DNA of 64,000 bases from Phenylobacterium sp. (GTDB lineage Bacteria; Pseudomonadota; Alphaproteobacteria; Caulobacterales; Caulobacteraceae), in NCBI RefSeq assembly GCF_013822795.1, contig NZ_PNLB01000005.1, positions 77,432 to 141,431 of the forward strand, in the 5' to 3' direction. Shown piece by piece: positions 28,302 to 57,788 of the stretch. Numbering within the stretch: the stretch's first letter is position 1; every line of letters begins with the position of its first letter. The notes below the pieces were generated by a model. It worked only from the letters and a program-made list of their open reading frames with translations. It searched no databases and had not been told where the DNA came from. A program made the translations under genes and the position numbers.

Positions 28302-28310
28302 GACTGAGAG

Positions 28311-28421
28311 TTGCTCCCCCGCTGGGGGAGCTGTCAGCCGAAAGGCTGACTGAGGGGGGTTGCTGAGCGCAGCAGGCCCCCTCCGTCTCGGCGCGTTGCG
28401 CCGCCCCCAATGGGGGAGGAA
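28311..28421. repeat. Palindromic intergenic repeat, family A (CIR-like)
   Basis: GCTCCCCC-N3-GGGGGAGC TGTCAGC..GCTGAC TGAGGGG arm, same as copies at 36901, 40789, 57661 and 60625. Confidence 0.9.
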
Positions 28422-28439
28422 CTTTCTTGATCATGCCCC

Positions 28440-28478
28440 AAAACGAAAAACCCCGCCCCGGGGAGGACGGGGCGGGGT
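28440..28478 (-). terminator. Rho-independent terminator
   Basis: 12-bp stem AACCCCGCCCCG / CGGGGCGGGGTT, 6-nt loop, then TTTCGTTTT on the minus strand. Confidence 0.85.
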
Positions 28479-28528
28479 TCTCGTGTCTAGACGGGCGGCT
28501 AGGGGGAGGGAGGGGCGCCGCTTGTCGT

Positions 28529-28636
28529 CTAGAGGCCGTTCAGCAGATAGCGGAACGACGATGCCGGCATGCGCGCGAGCTCGCGGGCGAAGGGACCCAG
28601 CATCCAGTCGATGACGCGTTCGATAGCGTTAGCCAT
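28529..28636 (-). CDS. 35-aa microprotein MANAIERVIDWMLGPFARELARMPASSFRYLLNGL (absent from the ORF track)
   Basis: AAGGAG RBS 6 nt upstream, GC-rich codon usage, its own promoter, operators and terminator. Confidence 0.7.
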   Translation of the reverse strand: MANAIERVIDWMLGPFARELARMPASSFRYLLNGL

Positions 28637-28652
28637 GCCCATCTCCTTTGTG

Positions 28653-28706
28653 TGCGGCGCAGCAAATTGTTGCAGTGCACATAAGGACATGTTTGCGACT
28701 ATGCAA
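28653..28706 (-). promoter_or_regulatory. Sigma70-like promoter overlapped by two PhaR-type boxes
   Basis: TTGCAT-N17-TATGTG (28706-28678); TGCGGCGCAGCA (28653-28664) and TGCAGTGCACAT (28671-28682) match TGCRNYGCASMA at 12/12 and 11/12. Confidence 0.7.
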
Positions 28707-28782
28707 GAGGCGTCGGGTGATTTTTAGCGCACATCCGGTTCTGAAGGGGCAGAATCGTCCTGGTGCGACGAAATGGTCACGC

Positions 28783-29019
28783 TCAGGCGCGGTTGCGCCG
28801 GCCCATCACCAGCGCCGCGGCCAATGCGCTGGGGATGGCCAGGGCGGTCGCTATCGTCGTTGAAGCCTCGCCGCCCCGCGCGTTGGCGGTGACCAGCCAA
28901 TGGGTCAACACCATCGGGGGCGCGGCGATCGCCGGCAGATAGATCGCCATCGACGTGACCTTCAGCCATCGCAATAGCGCGCTGACGACCGCGAACAGTG
29001 GAACGTAGAAAATCATCAA
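28783..29019 (-). CDS. Small hydrophobic hypothetical protein
   Basis: Three hydrophobic stretches; start codon uncertain; no family recognised. Confidence 0.35.
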   Translation of the reverse strand: MMIFYVPLFAVVSALLRWLKVTSMAIYLPAIAAPPMVLTHWLVTANARGGEASTTIATALAIPSALAAALVMGRRNRA

Positions 29020-29117: not shown

Positions 29118-29930
29118 TCAGGCCGCCGCTCTGACGGCTCCTGATGTGGCGCGCTGTTCTGCGGGCGCGCCGTTCCTCAAGGGAGCCGCCGCGAGCAGCG
29201 AGGCGTGTATCGCCAGGATGGGGCCGGTCATCTCGAGCAGTTCCTCGAGGATGATGAGGCGGGTCCAGGTGAGGCCGGTCCGATCTATGGATGCGATCCA
29301 GCCGAGATTGACGGCGGAGCTGATGGTCTCGAAGCCCAGCGATCCGGAGAGAAACAGGATCGCGGCCACGACCAGACAGGCGGCGACGTCTCGGCGGATC
29401 CGCAGGACAAACGGCACGAGCAGCGCGGCGACCAGCATCGCCAACATGCCCGCGAGCAAAACCCAGCCATAGTAGAAGGATCCCTCCAGCCCCATCGCGT
29501 CCTGGAGGGTGTCGCCCGCCAGCCCCAGCAGGCGTTCGTGCAGGGACGCGGCTTCATCCAGCGACAGCAGCAGGAACACCGAGCCGAGCAGGATCCACGA
29601 GCGGCGGATGACGAGGTCAGGCTCGCGGCGATGGGCGACCCAGGCCATCCTGGCGGCCATCGCCCAGAGCAACGAGGTGTACCAAGTCGGGATGTTATTC
29701 TCGCCATCCAGGTCGAACAGCTGGAACAGCACGCGGGTGATTTCCGGGCGACCCGGCTCCATGCCGTAGGGATTTAGGCGCTGCGCGCCGACATAGGCGG
29801 CGCAGAGCCCCAGCGCGATCAAAAGCAGGCCGCCAGCGACGGCGTAGGCGAAAAGCCGCGCGTCCTGAGTGCGCGCCGTGACGCGCTTGGTGTTCGAGCC
29901 CAACAAGCGATCCCCCCAACTTGCGACCAA
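29118..29930 (-). CDS. Multi-pass membrane hypothetical protein
   Basis: About 7 TM segments with conserved-looking DGENNIPTWY, LSLDEAASLHE and EELLEM motifs. Confidence 0.7.
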   Translation of the reverse strand: MVASWGDRLLGSNTKRVTARTQDARLFAYAVAGGLLLIALGLCAAYVGAQRLNPYGMEPGRPEITRVLFQLFDLDGENNIPTWYTSLLWAMAARMAWVAHRREPDLVIRRSWILLGSVFLLLSLDEAASLHERLLGLAGDTLQDAMGLEGSFYYGWVLLAGMLAMLVAALLVPFVLRIRRDVAACLVVAAILFLSGSLGFETISSAVNLGWIASIDRTGLTWTRLIILEELLEMTGPILAIHASLLAAAPLRNGAPAEQRATSGAVRAAA

Positions 29931-32887: not shown

Positions 32888-33072
32888 GTCGCTGCTCCTG
32901 ACCAGGTGTTGCGTCGCAGAGACCACCATCGGCGGGCGGTGGGAATCGGGTGGACTCCCGTCGGGCGGCGTTCCTAGGGGAAACCTTTGAAGCGGCGTCA
33001 GGGGGCGTATCCCCCTGGACTTCGCGGCGGCGGGCTTGCTTAGAAGCGCCAGCCGAAACGCGAGACCCGAGC

Positions 33073-36900: not shown

Positions 36901-37015
36901 GATCCTCCCCTCATGGGGGAGGTGGCGCGCGAAGCGCGGGGGACCGCTCTTAAGCGGAGTCAAAGTCCCCCTCAGTCAGCCGTTCGGCTGACAGCTCCCC
37001 CAGCGGGGGAGCATC
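36901..37015. repeat. Palindromic intergenic repeat, family A (CIR-like; GAGTC in the spacer)
   Basis: CCTCCCC..GGGGAGG and CCCCCTCAGTCAGC..GCTGACAGCTCCCCC..GGGGGAGC arms. Confidence 0.9.
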
Positions 37016-37043: not shown

Positions 37044-38108
37044 ATGACCACCAAGATCATCCCCGTCCTGATGTCGGGCGGCGCCGGCACGCGCCTGTGG
37101 CCGCTGTCGCGCAACGCCCGGCCCAAGCAGTTCCATCGGCTGGGCGGCGAGCACAGCCTGATCCAGGACACCGCCCTGCGGTTGACCGGCGAGGGCTTCG
37201 CGGCCCCGGTGGTGGTCTGCGCCGCAGCGCACGCCGACCTGGCGCGCGCGCAACTGTTGGAGGTCGGGATCACGCCGGCGGCGCTGATCACCGAGCCGGC
37301 GCCGCGCAACACCGCCCCGGCGTCGGTGGCGGCGGCGGCGTTCGGCGTGGAGATCGATCCCGAGGGGCTGATGGTGCTGATGCACGCCGACAACCTGGTG
37401 GCCGACGTCGCCGCGCTCCACGCCGCGATCGAGGCCGGGCGGTCGGCGGCGCAGGCCGGCGAGATCGTGCTGCTGGGCCTGAAGCCGACCGGGCCCTCGA
37501 CGCTCTACGGCTATATCCAGGCCAAGGGCGAGGGCGCGGTGCGCAAGGTGGCGCGCTTCGTCGAGAAGCCCGACCTGGCGACCGCCCAGCAGTTCGTGGC
37601 CGATCCGAACTTCACCTGGAACGGCGGGATGTTCCTGTTCAAGGCCGGAGCGTTCCTGGACGAGGCGCGGCGGCTGGCCCCGGAAGTCACGGCCGCGGCG
37701 CAGGCGGCGGTGACGGGCGCGGCGCGGACCCGCGACGTGGTGGCGCTGTCCGAGGCGTTCCTGACCGCGCCGAGCATCGCCATCGACGTGGCGGTGATGG
37801 AAAAGACCGACCGGGCCAGCGTGGTCGAGGCCGACATCGGCTGGGCCGACGTCGGCAATTGGGGCGCGCTCTGGGAGCTGTCGGAGAAGACCGAAAGCGG
37901 TGACGCCTTGGAAGGCGAGGTCGTGGCGGTGGAGACCAGGGACTGCCTGGCGCGCAGCGACGGGCCGGTGGTGGTGCTGGCCGGGGTCGAGGACCTGGTG
38001 GTGGTGGTCGAGAACGGGGTGGTGCTGGTCACCCGCCGCGACGCGCCGGCCGCGGTGCGGGCCGGGGTTGAGGCCCTGAAGGCCAAGGGGCGCGGCGACC
38101 TGCTCTAA
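37044..38108 (+). CDS. manC: Mannose-1-phosphate guanylyltransferase
   Basis: MSGGAGTRLWPLSR, PKQF, EPAPRNTAPA, FVEKPD, WADVGNW. Confidence 0.93.
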   Translation: MTTKIIPVLMSGGAGTRLWPLSRNARPKQFHRLGGEHSLIQDTALRLTGEGFAAPVVVCAAAHADLARAQLLEVGITPAALITEPAPRNTAPASVAAAAFGVEIDPEGLMVLMHADNLVADVAALHAAIEAGRSAAQAGEIVLLGLKPTGPSTLYGYIQAKGEGAVRKVARFVEKPDLATAQQFVADPNFTWNGGMFLFKAGAFLDEARRLAPEVTAAAQAAVTGAARTRDVVALSEAFLTAPSIAIDVAVMEKTDRASVVEADIGWADVGNWGALWELSEKTESGDALEGEVVAVETRDCLARSDGPVVVLAGVEDLVVVVENGVVLVTRRDAPAAVRAGVEALKAKGRGDLL

Positions 38109-40650: not shown

Positions 40651-40906
40651 TCCTCTCCCCGCCTGAGGGGAGAGGCTAGGTGAGGGGTCCTGCGGCGCGA
40701 AGCGGCGCTCTGCTGAGTCAGCAGCCCCCTCACCCCAACCCTCTCCCCCAAGGGGGCGAGGGAGCCGACCCGGGCGCTTCGCCCTCAGTTGCTCCCCCGC
40801 TGGGGGAGCTGTCAGCCGAATGGCTGACTGAGGGGGCTTGCTGACTCAGCAGTCCCCCTCCGTCTCGATGCTTCGCATCGATCCACCTCCCCCAGCGGGG
40901 AGGACC
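40651..40906. repeat. Composite repeat: family B (40651-40765) plus family A (40789-40906)
   Basis: CCTCTCCCC..GGGGAGAGG arms and GCTCCCCC..GGGGGAGC arms; each unit carries a TGCTGA(G/C)TCAGCA palindrome. Confidence 0.9.
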
Positions 40907-57475: not shown

Positions 57476-57788
57476 TCCTCCCCCGAAGGGGGAGCATCCA
57501 GAGCTGAGCATCTAGAACGACTCCCTCGCCCCCTTGGGGGAGAGGGTTGGGGTGAGGGGGGCTGCTGACTCAGCAGAGCGCCGCTCCGCGCCGCCAACCC
57601 CTCACCTAACCTCTCCCCTCAAGCGGGGAGAGGGACAGGCGTTGTAGCGATCGAAAGCCAGGTCCTCCCCTCTTGGGGGAGGTGGATCGGCGCGTAGCGG
57701 CGAGACGGAGGGGGACTGCTCTCAATGCGCGAGTGTCAAAGTCCCCCTCAGTCAGCTTCGCTGACAGCTCCCCCAGAGGGGGAGCATC
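57476..57788. repeat. Composite repeat: family A half-arm, family B (57520-57636) and family A (57661-57788)
   Basis: Same arms as other copies; CTGCTGACTCAGCAG at 57562-57576. Confidence 0.9.

What the first reader, a model, noticed from the sequence alone, without database searches (positions are those of the whole stretch)
28440..28706. Hidden PhaR-box-controlled transcription unit encoding a 35-aa amphipathic microprotein
Seen on the minus strand: promoter TTGCAT-N17-TATGTG; two TGC-N3-GCA boxes over the -10 and leader region (28653-28664 is a 12/12 match and 28671-28682 an 11/12 match to TGCRNYGCASMA); RBS AAGGAG; ORF 28636-28529 MANAIERVIDWMLGPFARELARMPASSFRYLLNGL; strong intrinsic terminator 28478-28440. 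It is below the ORF-track cutoff. Known: PhaR/AniA represses phasin and carbon-storage genes through such boxes and is released by PHB, and phasins bind granules through amphipathic helices. Inferred: an undescribed PHB-granule-associated or carbon-flux microprotein (a mini-phasin), or a dual-function sRNA, far from any pha gene in this window.
Basis: partly seen in the sequence, partly recalled or inferred. Interest (0 to 1): 0.8.

Follow-up and report, generated by a model that had tools for sequence, protein, structure and literature searches.

The report
PhaR-box-controlled 35-aa microprotein gene
A tiny, mostly unannotated but strongly conserved gene in Phenylobacterium encodes a 35-residue helical protein behind a promoter carrying two textbook binding sites for PhaR, the regulator that senses the carbon-storage polymer PHB, so it is a new candidate player in bacterial carbon storage.

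Summary
On the minus strand there is a promoter (TTGCAT-N17-TATGTG), two TGC-RNY-GCA boxes, an AAGGAG ribosome-binding site, a 35-codon ORF (28636-28529) and a strong terminator.

- **A real gene.** I found 76 related loci, from Phenylobacterium and unclassified alphaproteobacterial or metagenomic contigs. Nearly all keep 35 codons. pN/pS is 0.34 in frame, against 1.05 and 3.27 out of frame.
- **PhaR-type boxes.** A weight matrix built only from EMSA-validated Sinorhizobium PhaR/AniA sites ranks the two boxes first and second in the 64-kb window (25.0 and 19.4 bits; next best 8.0). In 21 distinct promoters all 42 boxes obey TGC-RNY-GCA.
- **Repression is inferred.** The boxes cover the -10 element and the predicted start site, which implies repression relieved by PHB. 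No binding was tested, and no phasin promoter from this lineage could be examined.
- **"Mini-phasin" is unsupported.** The protein is an amphipathic helix-kink-helix with no detectable relatives. Its near-invariant core argues for a specific partner.
- **New context.** Usually the gene ends an island (35-aa membrane peptide, DUF2975, HTH_26) that also carries PhaR-like boxes.
- **New 3'UTR feature.** In the window's clade the 3'UTR has two hairpins with CCUCC loops resembling ar14/"cuckoo" sRNAs, so a dual-function RNA remains possible.

The parts
28701..28706 (-). -35 element TTGCAT
   Evidence: Read. TTG plus an exact 17-nt spacer to the -10 is kept in 21 distinct homologous promoters.
28678..28683 (-). 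-10 element TATGTG (TATRTG in most relatives); overlapped by PhaR-like box 1
   Evidence: Not called by the generic scan because position 6 is G.
28665..28685 (-). PhaR-like box 1 (21-mer; core TGCACTGCA 28679-28671), covering the -10 and the predicted transcription start
   Evidence: Scores 25.0 bits against the S. meliloti PhaR matrix, the best hit in the 64-kb window and equal to the median training site. The core TGC-RNY-GCA is kept in all 21 distinct promoters.
28647..28667 (-). PhaR-like box 2 (21-mer; core TGCGCCGCA 28661-28653; + strand TGCGGCGCAGCA is 12/12 to TGCRNYGCASMA), in the 5'UTR
   Evidence: Scores 19.4 bits, second best in the window. The 18-bp spacing from box 1 equals that of the two EMSA-validated sites of S. 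meliloti phaP1.
28671..28671 (-). Predicted transcription start (A, 7 nt after the -10); inferred
   Evidence: Based on geometry. One 262-nt contig from a run typed only as probable RNA ('RNA?') ends exactly here. This is weak evidence.
28643..28648 (-). Shine-Dalgarno AAGGAG, 6 nt upstream of the ATG
   Evidence: GGAG is conserved at this position in the homologous promoters listed (AGGAG in all but one).
28529..28636 (-). 35-codon ORF plus TAG: MANAIERVIDWMLGPFARELARMPASSFRYLLNGL
   Evidence: In 17 sequences, variable columns by codon position are 18/9/29 and pN/pS is 0.34 in frame against 1.05 and 3.27 out of frame. There are 18 protein clusters, 16 genome loci, 8 further loci from contig look-ups and 52 metagenome loci.
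28486..28533 (-). 3'UTR hairpin 1. The outer stem UCUAGACG/CGUCUAGA contains the stop codon. The 17-nt loop GCCCCUCCCUCCCCCUA (28516-28500) is an anti-Shine-Dalgarno-like motif.
   Evidence: Fold of the 3'UTR: -50.3 kcal/mol, z = -5.4. Aligns to hairpin 2 of Rfam ar14. Three different stems carry a C-rich loop in relatives.
28440..28484 (-). Intrinsic terminator: G+C-rich stem, loop UCCUCCC (28467-28461), T-run 28450-28440
   Evidence: Four covarying pairs across 9 sequences. Aligns to the terminal hairpin of ar14.

Best explanation
This is a monocistronic gene transcribed from a housekeeping-type promoter. Two adjacent PhaR (AniA)-type operator boxes lie over the -10 element, the predicted start site and the early 5'UTR.

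**How it most likely works (inferred).** When the cell holds no PHB, free PhaR occupies the boxes and blocks initiation. When PHB granules form they titrate PhaR away, and the unit is derepressed together with phasin genes.

**The product.** It is a conserved 35-residue cytoplasmic protein forming an amphipathic helix-kink-helix. The near-invariant core P-[FL]-A-R-E-L-A-R-M-P-A-S-[SA]-F-R most likely docks onto one specific conserved partner, rather than coating granules non-specifically. It would so pass PHB or carbon status on to that partner.

**Candidate partners.** These are the PHB machinery, or the DUF2975 membrane protein and HTH_26 regulator encoded just upstream in most relatives.

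**The RNA.** In the window's own clade the same transcript ends in two hairpins with CCUCC (anti-Shine-Dalgarno) loops. These may add a riboregulatory output.

**Shown here:** gene structure, coding constraint, operator match and conservation, synteny, RNA folds.
**Inferred:** PhaR binding, the direction of regulation, the partner, and any 3'UTR activity.
For: **Coding**
- Nearly all of the 76 related loci keep 35 codons with an ATG start; GGAG sits just upstream of the ATG in the promoters examined.
- In 17 sequences, variable columns by codon position are 18/9/29. pN/pS is 0.34 in frame, against 1.05 and 3.27 off frame; the C-terminal 21 codons give 0.21.

**Operator**
- A matrix from 18 EMSA-'efficient' S. 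meliloti PhaR sites gives 25.0 and 19.4 bits here. The next best hit in 64 kb is 8.0 and shuffles reach a mean maximum of 10.5.
- In 24 loci (140 kb, scored at 10 bits or more) and 52 metagenome loci (186 kb, at 12 bits or more), strong hits fall almost only at -36 and -20 from this ATG, at about -105 to -128, and in the orfA promoter. Of the 52, 43 have both boxes.
- All 42 boxes in 21 distinct promoters are TGC-RNY-GCA, with 10 different central triplets.
- The 18-bp tandem spacing equals that of S. meliloti phaP1. Box position resembles the PhaR-repressed SMa1961 and mmgR promoters.
- Caulobacter, in the same order, has phaR.
- The boxes persist at full strength where the neighbouring HTH_26 gene is absent.

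**Protein**
- AlphaFold2 predicts helices 2-22 and 25-34 with mean pLDDT 79.
- The hydrophobic moment of residues 2-22 is 0.53, against 0.25 for shuffles (p = 0.016).

**Expression**
- Short contigs (165-262 nt) from metatranscriptomic and probable-RNA runs lie on the unit; most are confined to it or run a few bases past its ends.
Against: - No binding or expression experiment exists for this locus.
- I could not retrieve a phaR gene or a phasin promoter from Phenylobacterium, so it is not shown that the same boxes precede its pha genes.
- The S. meliloti sites were first found by motif search before EMSA. The matrix therefore describes a motif class, not an affinity.
- The box spacing varies from 13 to 18 bp. 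That fits independent sites but gives no fixed architecture.
- The tight linkage to HTH_26 and DUF2975 (43 of 52 metagenome loci) leaves room for local rather than PhaR control.
- Two metatranscriptome contigs extend about 25-30 nt upstream of the predicted start.
- Translation has not been observed.
Confidence: 0.65

Rival explanations
1. Dual-function or mainly riboregulatory RNA. The important output in the window's clade would be the 3'UTR: a two-hairpin 'cuckoo'/ar14-like module whose CCUCC loops pair with Shine-Dalgarno regions of target mRNAs. This would parallel the PhaR-repressed sRNA MmgR, which limits phasin synthesis in S. meliloti. The ORF would be a second function, or would modulate 3'UTR folding, since the stop codon lies in the outer stem of hairpin 1.
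For: - ar14 (RF02344) matches at 34.8 bits here and at 41.7, 38.7, 37.2 and 30.0 bits in L001, L002, L006 and L003. It aligns both hairpins and both C-rich loops.
- L001 and L002 carry the exact CCUCCUCCC motif.
- The 3'UTR fold has z = -5.4.
- Three different hairpin-1 stems keep a C-rich loop, and the terminator has 4 covarying pairs.
- CCTCCCC is depleted in the window (13 observed, 22.8 expected), yet two copies sit in these loops.
- Precedents exist: MmgR is PhaR-repressed. [quoted passage not shown] SMc02051, which lies next to NfeR1, is PhaR-repressed.
- In run X46 the 3' part has a higher contig depth than the ORF part.
Against: - Every ar14 score is below Rfam's gathering threshold of 58.8, and the first ar14 hairpin is missing.
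- CCUCC loops are absent from L007, L009-L011 and L013-L024, and are rare in the metagenome loci, while the ORF and boxes persist everywhere.
- The ORF shows clear protein-level selection.
- No target pairing could be tested.
- The X46 depth difference could be a mixture of strains.
Confidence: 0.3
2. The boxes are not PhaR sites. They would be bound by another regulator, most plausibly the small HTH_26 (XRE-type) protein encoded immediately upstream in most relatives, or by NtrC. The unit would then belong to a local DUF2975/HTH_26 circuit unrelated to PHB.
For: - HTH_26 lies directly upstream in 18 of the first 24 related loci and in 43 of 52 metagenome loci.
- The same box type occurs at the promoter of the orfA-DUF2975-HTH_26 operon and almost nowhere else in 326 kb. 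That is what a local autoregulator would give.
- The mmgR dyad in S. meliloti is also reported to respond to NtrC.
Against: - The boxes score as high as bona fide PhaR sites from another order and obey the RNY rule 42 times out of 42.
- They are intact where HTH_26 is missing from the locus: the window, L001-L004 and L012. No HTH_26 homologue is found in the 64-kb window.
- The orfA promoter carries a separate pair of ATCG-N5-CGAT palindromes over its -35 region. These are absent from this promoter and are a better candidate for the HTH_26 operator.
Confidence: 0.15
3. Mini-phasin. The amphipathic peptide would bind the PHB granule surface directly and act as a structural granule protein.
For: - The helix is amphipathic.
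- Predicted co-regulation with phasins through PhaR boxes.
- Phasins are amphipathic helical proteins.
Against: - No sequence relationship to any Pfam or NCBIfam family, phasins included.
- No larger homologue was found among 1.84 billion representative proteins.
- At about 3.9 kDa it is far smaller than the 15-25 kDa quoted for phasin.
- Twenty positions are invariant within the closer set of 14-16 sequences. Six remain invariant across the whole family and the P-[FL]-A-R-E-L-A-R-M-P-A-S core is nearly so. This points to a specific partner, not a generic surface.
- It is linked to a membrane-protein and regulator cassette, not to pha genes.
Confidence: 0.15
4. A diverged CcaF1/DUF1127-like small RNA-binding protein that acts on its own 3'UTR cuckoo-type RNA, as ccaF1 does for CcsR1-4 in Rhodobacter.
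For: - The architecture is the same: a small ORF followed by CCUCC hairpins.
- The S. meliloti DUF1127 gene SMc02051 is in the PhaR regulon.
- hhalign against an alphaproteobacterial DUF1127 profile aligns ...ARELARMPASSF... with ...VNELGRMSDREL... at score 14.6. Only 2 of 300 column shuffles reach that score.
Against: - hhalign probability is only 4.9%, and 0.2% against the enterobacterial YjiS profile.
- The Pfam DUF1127 model hits none of 21 members even at E = 10.
- The protein is not arginine-rich (net charge 0 to +2) and has nothing matching the C-terminal part of the DUF1127 alignment beyond DLGI.
- Most family members have no CCUCC loops.
Confidence: 0.12
5. Not translated. The ORF would be a chance reading frame in a conserved non-coding RNA or regulatory region.
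For: There is no direct evidence of translation. Some C-terminal codons are nearly invariant at the DNA level among close relatives.
Against: - Third-position-biased variation, with pN/pS of 0.34 in this frame only.
- Fixed 35-codon length with varying stop codons (TAG, TGA, TAA).
- Conserved Shine-Dalgarno sequence and ATG.
Confidence: 0.05

Closest known systems
PhaR/AniA-repressed promoters of alphaproteobacteria (S. meliloti phaP1, phaP2, SMa1961, mmgR; B. diazoefficiens phaP1, phaP4)
   Same: - The same palindromic core TGC-RNY-GCA with A/T-rich arms.
- Two sites in tandem, 18 bp apart as in S. meliloti phaP1.
- Sites overlapping core promoter elements or the start site, as in SMa1961 and mmgR.
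   Different: - The regulated gene is a 35-aa protein of unknown family, not a phasin, depolymerase or known sRNA.
- The organism is a Caulobacterales member, for which I know of no experimentally defined PhaR site.
- Binding was not tested.
MmgR (alpha-r8 family), the PhaR-repressed, Hfq-dependent sRNA that limits phasin synthesis in S. meliloti
   Same: - A short PhaR-box-controlled transcript.
- An anti-Shine-Dalgarno motif in a hairpin loop.
- A Rho-independent terminator.
   Different: - The only Rfam families matched in this region are ar14 and a few weak, unrelated ones.
- This transcript encodes a conserved protein.
- The C-rich loops occur only in part of the family.
Cuckoo / ar14 / CcsR RNAs with their adjacent small ORFs (ccaF1-CcsR1-4 of Rhodobacter; SMc02051-NfeR1 of S. 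meliloti)
   Same: - Adjacent hairpins with CCUCCUCCC-type loops and variable stems.
- They lie in the 3'UTR of a small ORF.
- The S. meliloti small ORF is itself PhaR-repressed.
   Different: - The match is below the Rfam threshold, with only two hairpins, one of which doubles as the terminator.
- The motif is degenerate in the window (CCUCCCUCCCC and UCCUCCC).
- The family is described from Rhizobiales and Rhodobacterales, not Caulobacterales.
- The ORF is not a recognisable DUF1127 protein.
Phasins (PhaP)
   Same: Amphipathic helical proteins, expected to be co-regulated through PhaR.
   Different: - About a fifth of the size.
- No sequence similarity.
- A highly conserved motif instead of a fast-evolving low-complexity sequence.
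- Not linked to pha genes.
DUF2975 membrane protein plus HTH_26 (YozG-like) regulator gene pairs
   Same: In most relatives the microprotein gene is the last gene of such a cassette, between rdgB and rph.
   Different: - The cassette's function is unknown.
- It is absent from the window's own locus.
- The microprotein has its own promoter and terminator.

Membership tests
PhaR/AniA regulon (operator-defined) | Palindromic YGC-RNY-GCR core with A/T-rich arms that matches experimentally bound sites | tested here: met
   Scores 25.0 and 19.4 bits against a matrix of 18 EMSA-efficient S. meliloti sites (training median 24.9). These are the top two hits in the window. 12/12 and 11/12 to TGCRNYGCASMA. 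42 of 42 orthologous boxes obey TGC-RNY-GCA.
PhaR/AniA regulon (operator-defined) | Site placed where a repressor blocks initiation (overlapping -35, -10 or the start site) | tested here: met
   Box 1 covers the -10 and the predicted start; box 2 lies at about +14. The promoter itself is predicted, not mapped.
PhaR/AniA regulon (operator-defined) | The same motif precedes phasin and phaR genes of the same genome, and phaR is present | not tested
Caulobacter has phaR.
PhaR/AniA regulon (operator-defined) | PhaR binds the DNA, and expression rises in phaR mutants or when PHB is made | not testable with these tools
   Needs EMSA or ChIP, and mutant transcriptomics.
Phasin (PhaP) | Sequence membership of a phasin family | tested here: not met
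   No Pfam or NCBIfam hit for any of 21 members, even at E = 10. A profile search of 1.84 billion representatives finds only 33-77-aa relatives.
Phasin (PhaP) | Amphipathic helices | tested here: met
   AlphaFold2 helices 2-22 and 25-34, pLDDT 79. Hydrophobic moment 0.53, p = 0.016 against shuffles.
Phasin (PhaP) | Localises to PHB granules and affects granule number or size | not testable with these tools
   Needs microscopy or granule proteomics.
Cuckoo / ar14 (RF02344) sRNA | Reaches the Rfam gathering score | tested here: not met
   34.8 bits against 58.8 in the window. 30.0-41.7 bits in L001, L002, L003 and L006.
Cuckoo / ar14 (RF02344) sRNA | 2-4 adjacent hairpins, each loop carrying CCUCCUCCC, with variable stems | tested here: inconclusive
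   There are two hairpins. The loops are GCCCCUCCCUCCCCCUA and UCCUCCC in the window. The exact CCUCCUCCC occurs in hairpin 1 of L001 and L002. The motif is present in 9 of the 25 sequences folded (the window plus 24 loci) and absent from the rest.
DUF1127 / CcaF1-like small proteins | Detectable homology to PF06568 | tested here: inconclusive
   Pfam finds no hit. hhalign gives probability 0.2% against the YjiS profile. Against the alphaproteobacterial profile it gives 4.9%, score 14.6, exceeded by 2 of 300 column shuffles. This is a hint, not membership.
Translated small ORF (microprotein gene) | Start codon with Shine-Dalgarno, conserved length, and purifying selection specific to the frame | tested here: met
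Translated small ORF (microprotein gene) | Direct evidence of translation | not testable with these tools
   No Ribo-seq or peptide data are available. The only RNA evidence is contigs from metatranscriptomic and probable-RNA runs covering the unit.

The most novel reading that the evidence does not exclude
PHB status, read by PhaR, would gate a bifunctional transcript. Its 35-aa product would be a very diverged CcaF1/DUF1127-type factor, and its 3'UTR a two-hairpin cuckoo-type anti-Shine-Dalgarno RNA that tunes translation of phasin or carbon-metabolism mRNAs. The PhaR to small-ORF-plus-cuckoo-RNA circuit hinted at in S. meliloti (SMc02051/NfeR1, MmgR) would then be an ancient alphaproteobacterial module reaching into Caulobacterales.
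Probability: 0.12. Interest if true: 0.8.

Novelty: new variant of a known kind. Interest (0 to 1): 0.55.

Why it matters
- **PhaR regulons contain unexplained small proteins.** PhaR is known to control far more than phasins. In both Sinorhizobium and Bradyrhizobium its regulon includes strongly regulated small proteins of unknown function.
- **This is an unusually clean example.** It is a short, separately transcribed, deeply conserved microprotein gene, and its promoter is almost entirely a PhaR-type operator.
- **It gives a tractable handle.** It could show how PHB status is passed on to other cell functions in Caulobacterales. Possible routes are a DUF2975/HTH_26 membrane module or an anti-Shine-Dalgarno RNA.
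- **It shows an annotation gap.** The gene is a conserved 35-codon ORF that many genome records in the collection carry without a name or accession.

Tried and rejected
- **Protein family searches.** Pfam and NCBIfam scans of the peptide and of 21 family members found nothing.
- **Search for larger relatives.** A profile search of 1.84 billion representatives found only small relatives plus spurious repeat proteins. The peptide is therefore not a fragment of a known domain.
- **Search for PhaR nearby.** I ran phmmer with remembered PhaR N-terminal sequences against six-frame translations of the window and loci. There were no hits, so no local phaR exists to compare.
- **Rfam.** Nothing reaches gathering thresholds in the window. 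The region gives only the sub-threshold ar14 match and a few weak, unrelated matches.
- **DUF1127 idea.** The enterobacterial profile was negative. The alphaproteobacterial profile was weakly suggestive only. A tblastn of YjiS against plasmids returned only enterobacteria.
- **Other box-like hits in the window.** The hit at 32904-32924, upstream of a Zn-dependent dehydrogenase, scores only 4.7 bits. The hit at 37215-37229 lies inside a gene. Both were dismissed.
- **Self-sequestration of the ribosome-binding site.** The full-length fold does not pair the C-rich loops with the Shine-Dalgarno sequence.
- **Leader-peptide or attenuator reading.** Rejected, because a strong terminator and the convergent rph gene follow the ORF.
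- **Longer 53-aa and 37-aa reading frames.** Rejected, because the upstream ATGs are not conserved and the first one abuts the Shine-Dalgarno sequence.
- **Whole-3'UTR alignment for hairpin 1.** It failed because of indels, so per-sequence folds were used instead.
- **Mapping the transcript 5' end.** Only assembled contigs were available, so the 5' end could not be mapped.
- **S. meliloti SMc03998.** I could not show that this PhaR-repressed gene is an HTH_26 protein.
Full report
**1.

On the minus strand the sequence reads TTGCAT (28706-28701), a 17-nt spacer and TATGTG (28683-28678). Next come the stretch TGCACTGCAACAATTTGCTGCGCCGCACA, then AAGGAG (28648-28643), and six bases later an ATG at 28636. 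That ATG opens a 35-codon frame ending in TAG at 28529.

A G+C-rich hairpin with a T-run follows. Read on the + strand, 28653-28664 is TGCGGCGCAGCA, a 12/12 match to TGCRNYGCASMA. The stretch 28671-28682 is an 11/12 match. That consensus is the published PhaR consensus of Bradyrhizobium diazoefficiens, derived from DNase footprints (PMC6201568).

The bare 12-mer is not enriched in the window (15 hits with at most one mismatch, 22.9 expected). However, four of those 15 hits are these two palindromic boxes read on both strands.

**2. It is a real protein-coding gene**

- *Spread.* The peptide has 18 clusters of close relatives in the protein collection. There are 16 loci in species-representative genomes, all Phenylobacterium or unclassified alphaproteobacterial MAGs. 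Contig look-ups added 8 loci and metagenome contigs 52 more.
- *Length.* Nearly every copy has 35 codons and an ATG start (a few have 36-37, one has lost its stop codon, one match is partial). GGAG lies just upstream in the promoters listed, and the stop codon varies among TAG, TGA and TAA.
- *Codon signature.* Across 17 sequences the variable columns fall 18/9/29 on codon positions 1/2/3. Pooled pN/pS is 0.34 in this frame, against 1.05 and 3.27 in the other two. For the C-terminal 21 codons it is 0.21.
- *Conservation.* The core P-[FL]-A-R-E-L-A-R-M-P-A-S-[SA]-F-R is almost invariant.
- *Novelty of the family.* No Pfam or NCBIfam model matches. A profile search of 1.84 billion representatives finds only 33-77-aa relatives. 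The longer ones are mis-called starts whose N-terminal "extensions" are translations of the conserved operator.
- *Annotation.* The gene is mostly unannotated. One record calls it a hypothetical protein (MBB3890696.1, Phenylobacterium haematophilum).

**3. The boxes are PhaR-type operators by every sequence test available**

I built a 21-bp matrix only from the 18 S. meliloti sites whose promoters bound His6-PhaR efficiently in EMSA (PMC12542648, Table 3).

- *In the window.* The best two positions on either strand are 28665-28685 (25.0 bits, equal to the median training site) and 28647-28667 (19.4 bits). The third best is 8.0 bits. Shuffled windows reach 10.5 on average.
- *In related loci.* The first 24 loci (140 kb) were scored at 10 bits or more and the 52 metagenome loci (186 kb) at 12 bits or more. 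Strong hits fall almost only at -36 and -20 from this ATG, at about -105 to -128, and in one other promoter described below. Of the 52, 43 have both boxes.
- *Phylogenetic footprint.* In 21 distinct promoters all 42 boxes are TGC-RNY-GCA. Ten different central triplets occur, while the arms never change.
- *Spacing.* The window's 18-bp spacing is that of the two PhaR sites of S. meliloti phaP1 (797221-797241 and 797239-797259). Elsewhere the spacing runs from 13 to 18 bp, mostly 17.
- *Position.* Box 1 overlaps the -10 and the predicted start; box 2 lies in the early 5'UTR. This resembles the PhaR-repressed SMa1961 and mmgR promoters.

The inferred logic is the established one for PhaR: repression, relieved when PHB granules sequester the repressor. 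Caulobacter, in the same order, has phaR next to phaAB.

What is missing is any pha promoter from Phenylobacterium itself. I could not fetch one, and there is of course no binding data.

**4.

In most relatives the gene is the last member of an island inserted between rdgB and rph. The island runs: a 35-aa hydrophobic peptide (orfA), a DUF2975 membrane protein, an HTH_26 (XRE-type) regulator of about 80 aa, then this gene with its own promoter. HTH_26 is adjacent in 43 of 52 metagenome loci.

The orfA promoter also carries two PhaR-like boxes (up to 25 bits). In addition it has two ATCG-N5-CGAT palindromes over its -35 region, which the microprotein promoter lacks.

I read the ATCG palindromes as the likely HTH_26 operator and the TGC boxes as sites for a regulator encoded elsewhere. 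The reason is that the window, L001-L004 and L012 have lost DUF2975 and HTH_26 at this locus yet keep the boxes at full strength. The linkage still makes the DUF2975/HTH_26 pair a serious candidate for the microprotein's partner.

**5. The 3'UTR**

The 3'UTR folds into two hairpins (-50.3 kcal/mol, z = -5.4).

- *Hairpin 1.* Its outer stem includes the stop codon, and it has a 17-nt loop GCCCCUCCCUCCCCCUA.
- *Terminator.* Its loop is UCCUCCC.

Rfam's ar14 model aligns both hairpins at 34.8 bits (E = 4.5e-5 for the 321-nt search). It gives 30.0-41.7 bits in four relatives. All are below the gathering score of 58.8.

Relatives with quite different stems keep C-rich loops, and L001 and L002 have the exact CCUCCUCCC motif. 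The terminator shows four covarying pairs. CCTCCCC is under-represented in the window (13 copies against 22.8 expected), yet two copies sit in these loops.

This is the "cuckoo" architecture of 2-4 hairpins with CCUCCUCCC loops (PMC4615179). [quoted passage not shown]

Two S. meliloti parallels are notable. The sRNA MmgR is PhaR-repressed and limits phasins. The DUF1127 gene SMc02051, next to the cuckoo RNA NfeR1, is in the PhaR regulon.

However, the loops are missing in L007, L009-L011, L013-L024 and most metagenome loci. Any RNA function is therefore clade-specific and secondary to the protein.

**6. The protein**

AlphaFold2 with a 16-sequence alignment gives helix 2-22, a kink at Met-Pro, and helix 25-34, with mean pLDDT 79. 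Helix 2-22 is amphipathic: hydrophobic moment 0.53 against 0.25 for shuffles, p = 0.016. Net charge is 0 to +2.

"Amphipathic" is therefore right. "Mini-phasin" rests on nothing more, and the invariant core argues for a specific partner.

Prompted by the cuckoo context, I tested DUF1127 membership.
- Pfam finds nothing.
- hhalign gives 0.2% probability against an enterobacterial profile.
- Against an alphaproteobacterial profile it gives 4.9%, aligning ARELARMPASSF with VNELGRMSDREL.
- That score of 14.6 is reached by only 2 of 300 column shuffles.

This is a hint, not membership.

**7. Expression**

No isolate RNA-seq was found. Short contigs (165-262 nt, word depth 2-27) from metatranscriptomic runs and from runs typed only as probable RNA lie on the unit; most are confined to it or run a few bases past its ends.
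- One contig ends exactly at the predicted start, 28671.
- Two reach about 25-30 nt further upstream.
- In one run the 3' part has roughly three times the depth of the ORF part.

These are assembled contigs of related strains, so they show presence, not transcript ends.

**8. Verdict**

- The unit is real, conserved and coding (about 0.9).
- It is very probably under a PhaR-type repressor (about 0.75).
- Its biochemical role is unknown. My best guess is a PHB-status effector that docks on a conserved partner.
- A granule-coating role is unlikely (about 0.15).
- A riboregulatory 3'UTR in the window's clade is possible (about 0.3).

It is a new protein family and a new combination of known regulatory parts, in an order where PhaR targets have not been mapped.

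Noticed in passing
L019:6700-7900 (likewise L005-L011 and L013-L024; 38-43 of L026-L077): A conserved island lies between rdgB and rph: a 35-aa hydrophobic peptide (orfA, e.g. MFSSVMRAFDRASLTIFIALAMTPMLAIAVAATIR), a DUF2975 membrane protein and an HTH_26 regulator. Its promoter carries two PhaR-like boxes (up to 25 bits) and two ATCG-N5-CGAT palindromes. The window's lineage lacks this island.
   Followed up: partly
window 28309-28390 (also 40787-40867, 36967-37013, 57743-57786): A dispersed intergenic repeat of about 80 nt with internal hairpins lies between the rph stop codon and the microprotein terminator. It is 94% identical to a second full copy. Many metagenome and metatranscriptome contigs pile up on it. 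CCTCCCC/GGGGAGG motifs lie beside several copies.
   Followed up: partly
window 28761-28772 (-): TTCGTCGCACCA has one mismatch to the PhaR 12-mer and lies about 130 nt upstream of the ATG. Many relatives have a third box of 10-22 bits at this position. Here it looks degenerate and is not among the top matrix hits.
   Followed up: partly
window 32904-32924: A single weak PhaR-like palindrome (GTGTTGCGTCGCAGAGA, 4.7 bits) lies about 20 nt upstream of the start of a Zn-dependent alcohol-dehydrogenase-family gene, which sits near a GFA-family gene. It is probably not significant.
   Followed up: partly
window 28783-29019 (-) and 29118-29930 (-): In place of DUF2975 and HTH_26, the genes upstream of the microprotein in this lineage are a 78-aa membrane protein (weak SCO4225/DUF7942 similarity) and a 270-aa polytopic membrane protein with no family assignment.
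   Followed up: no
window 28438-28558 versus 28529-28725, run X46: Two contig variants of the 3'UTR part have word depths of 95 and 138, against 70 for the ORF and promoter part. This could mean a 3' fragment accumulates, or it could be a mixture of strains. The run's type is not recorded.
   Followed up: no
L060:1751-2040: In one metagenome copy the microprotein frame has lost its stop codon and runs on for about 60 more codons. This is probably a sequencing or assembly variant.
   Followed up: no
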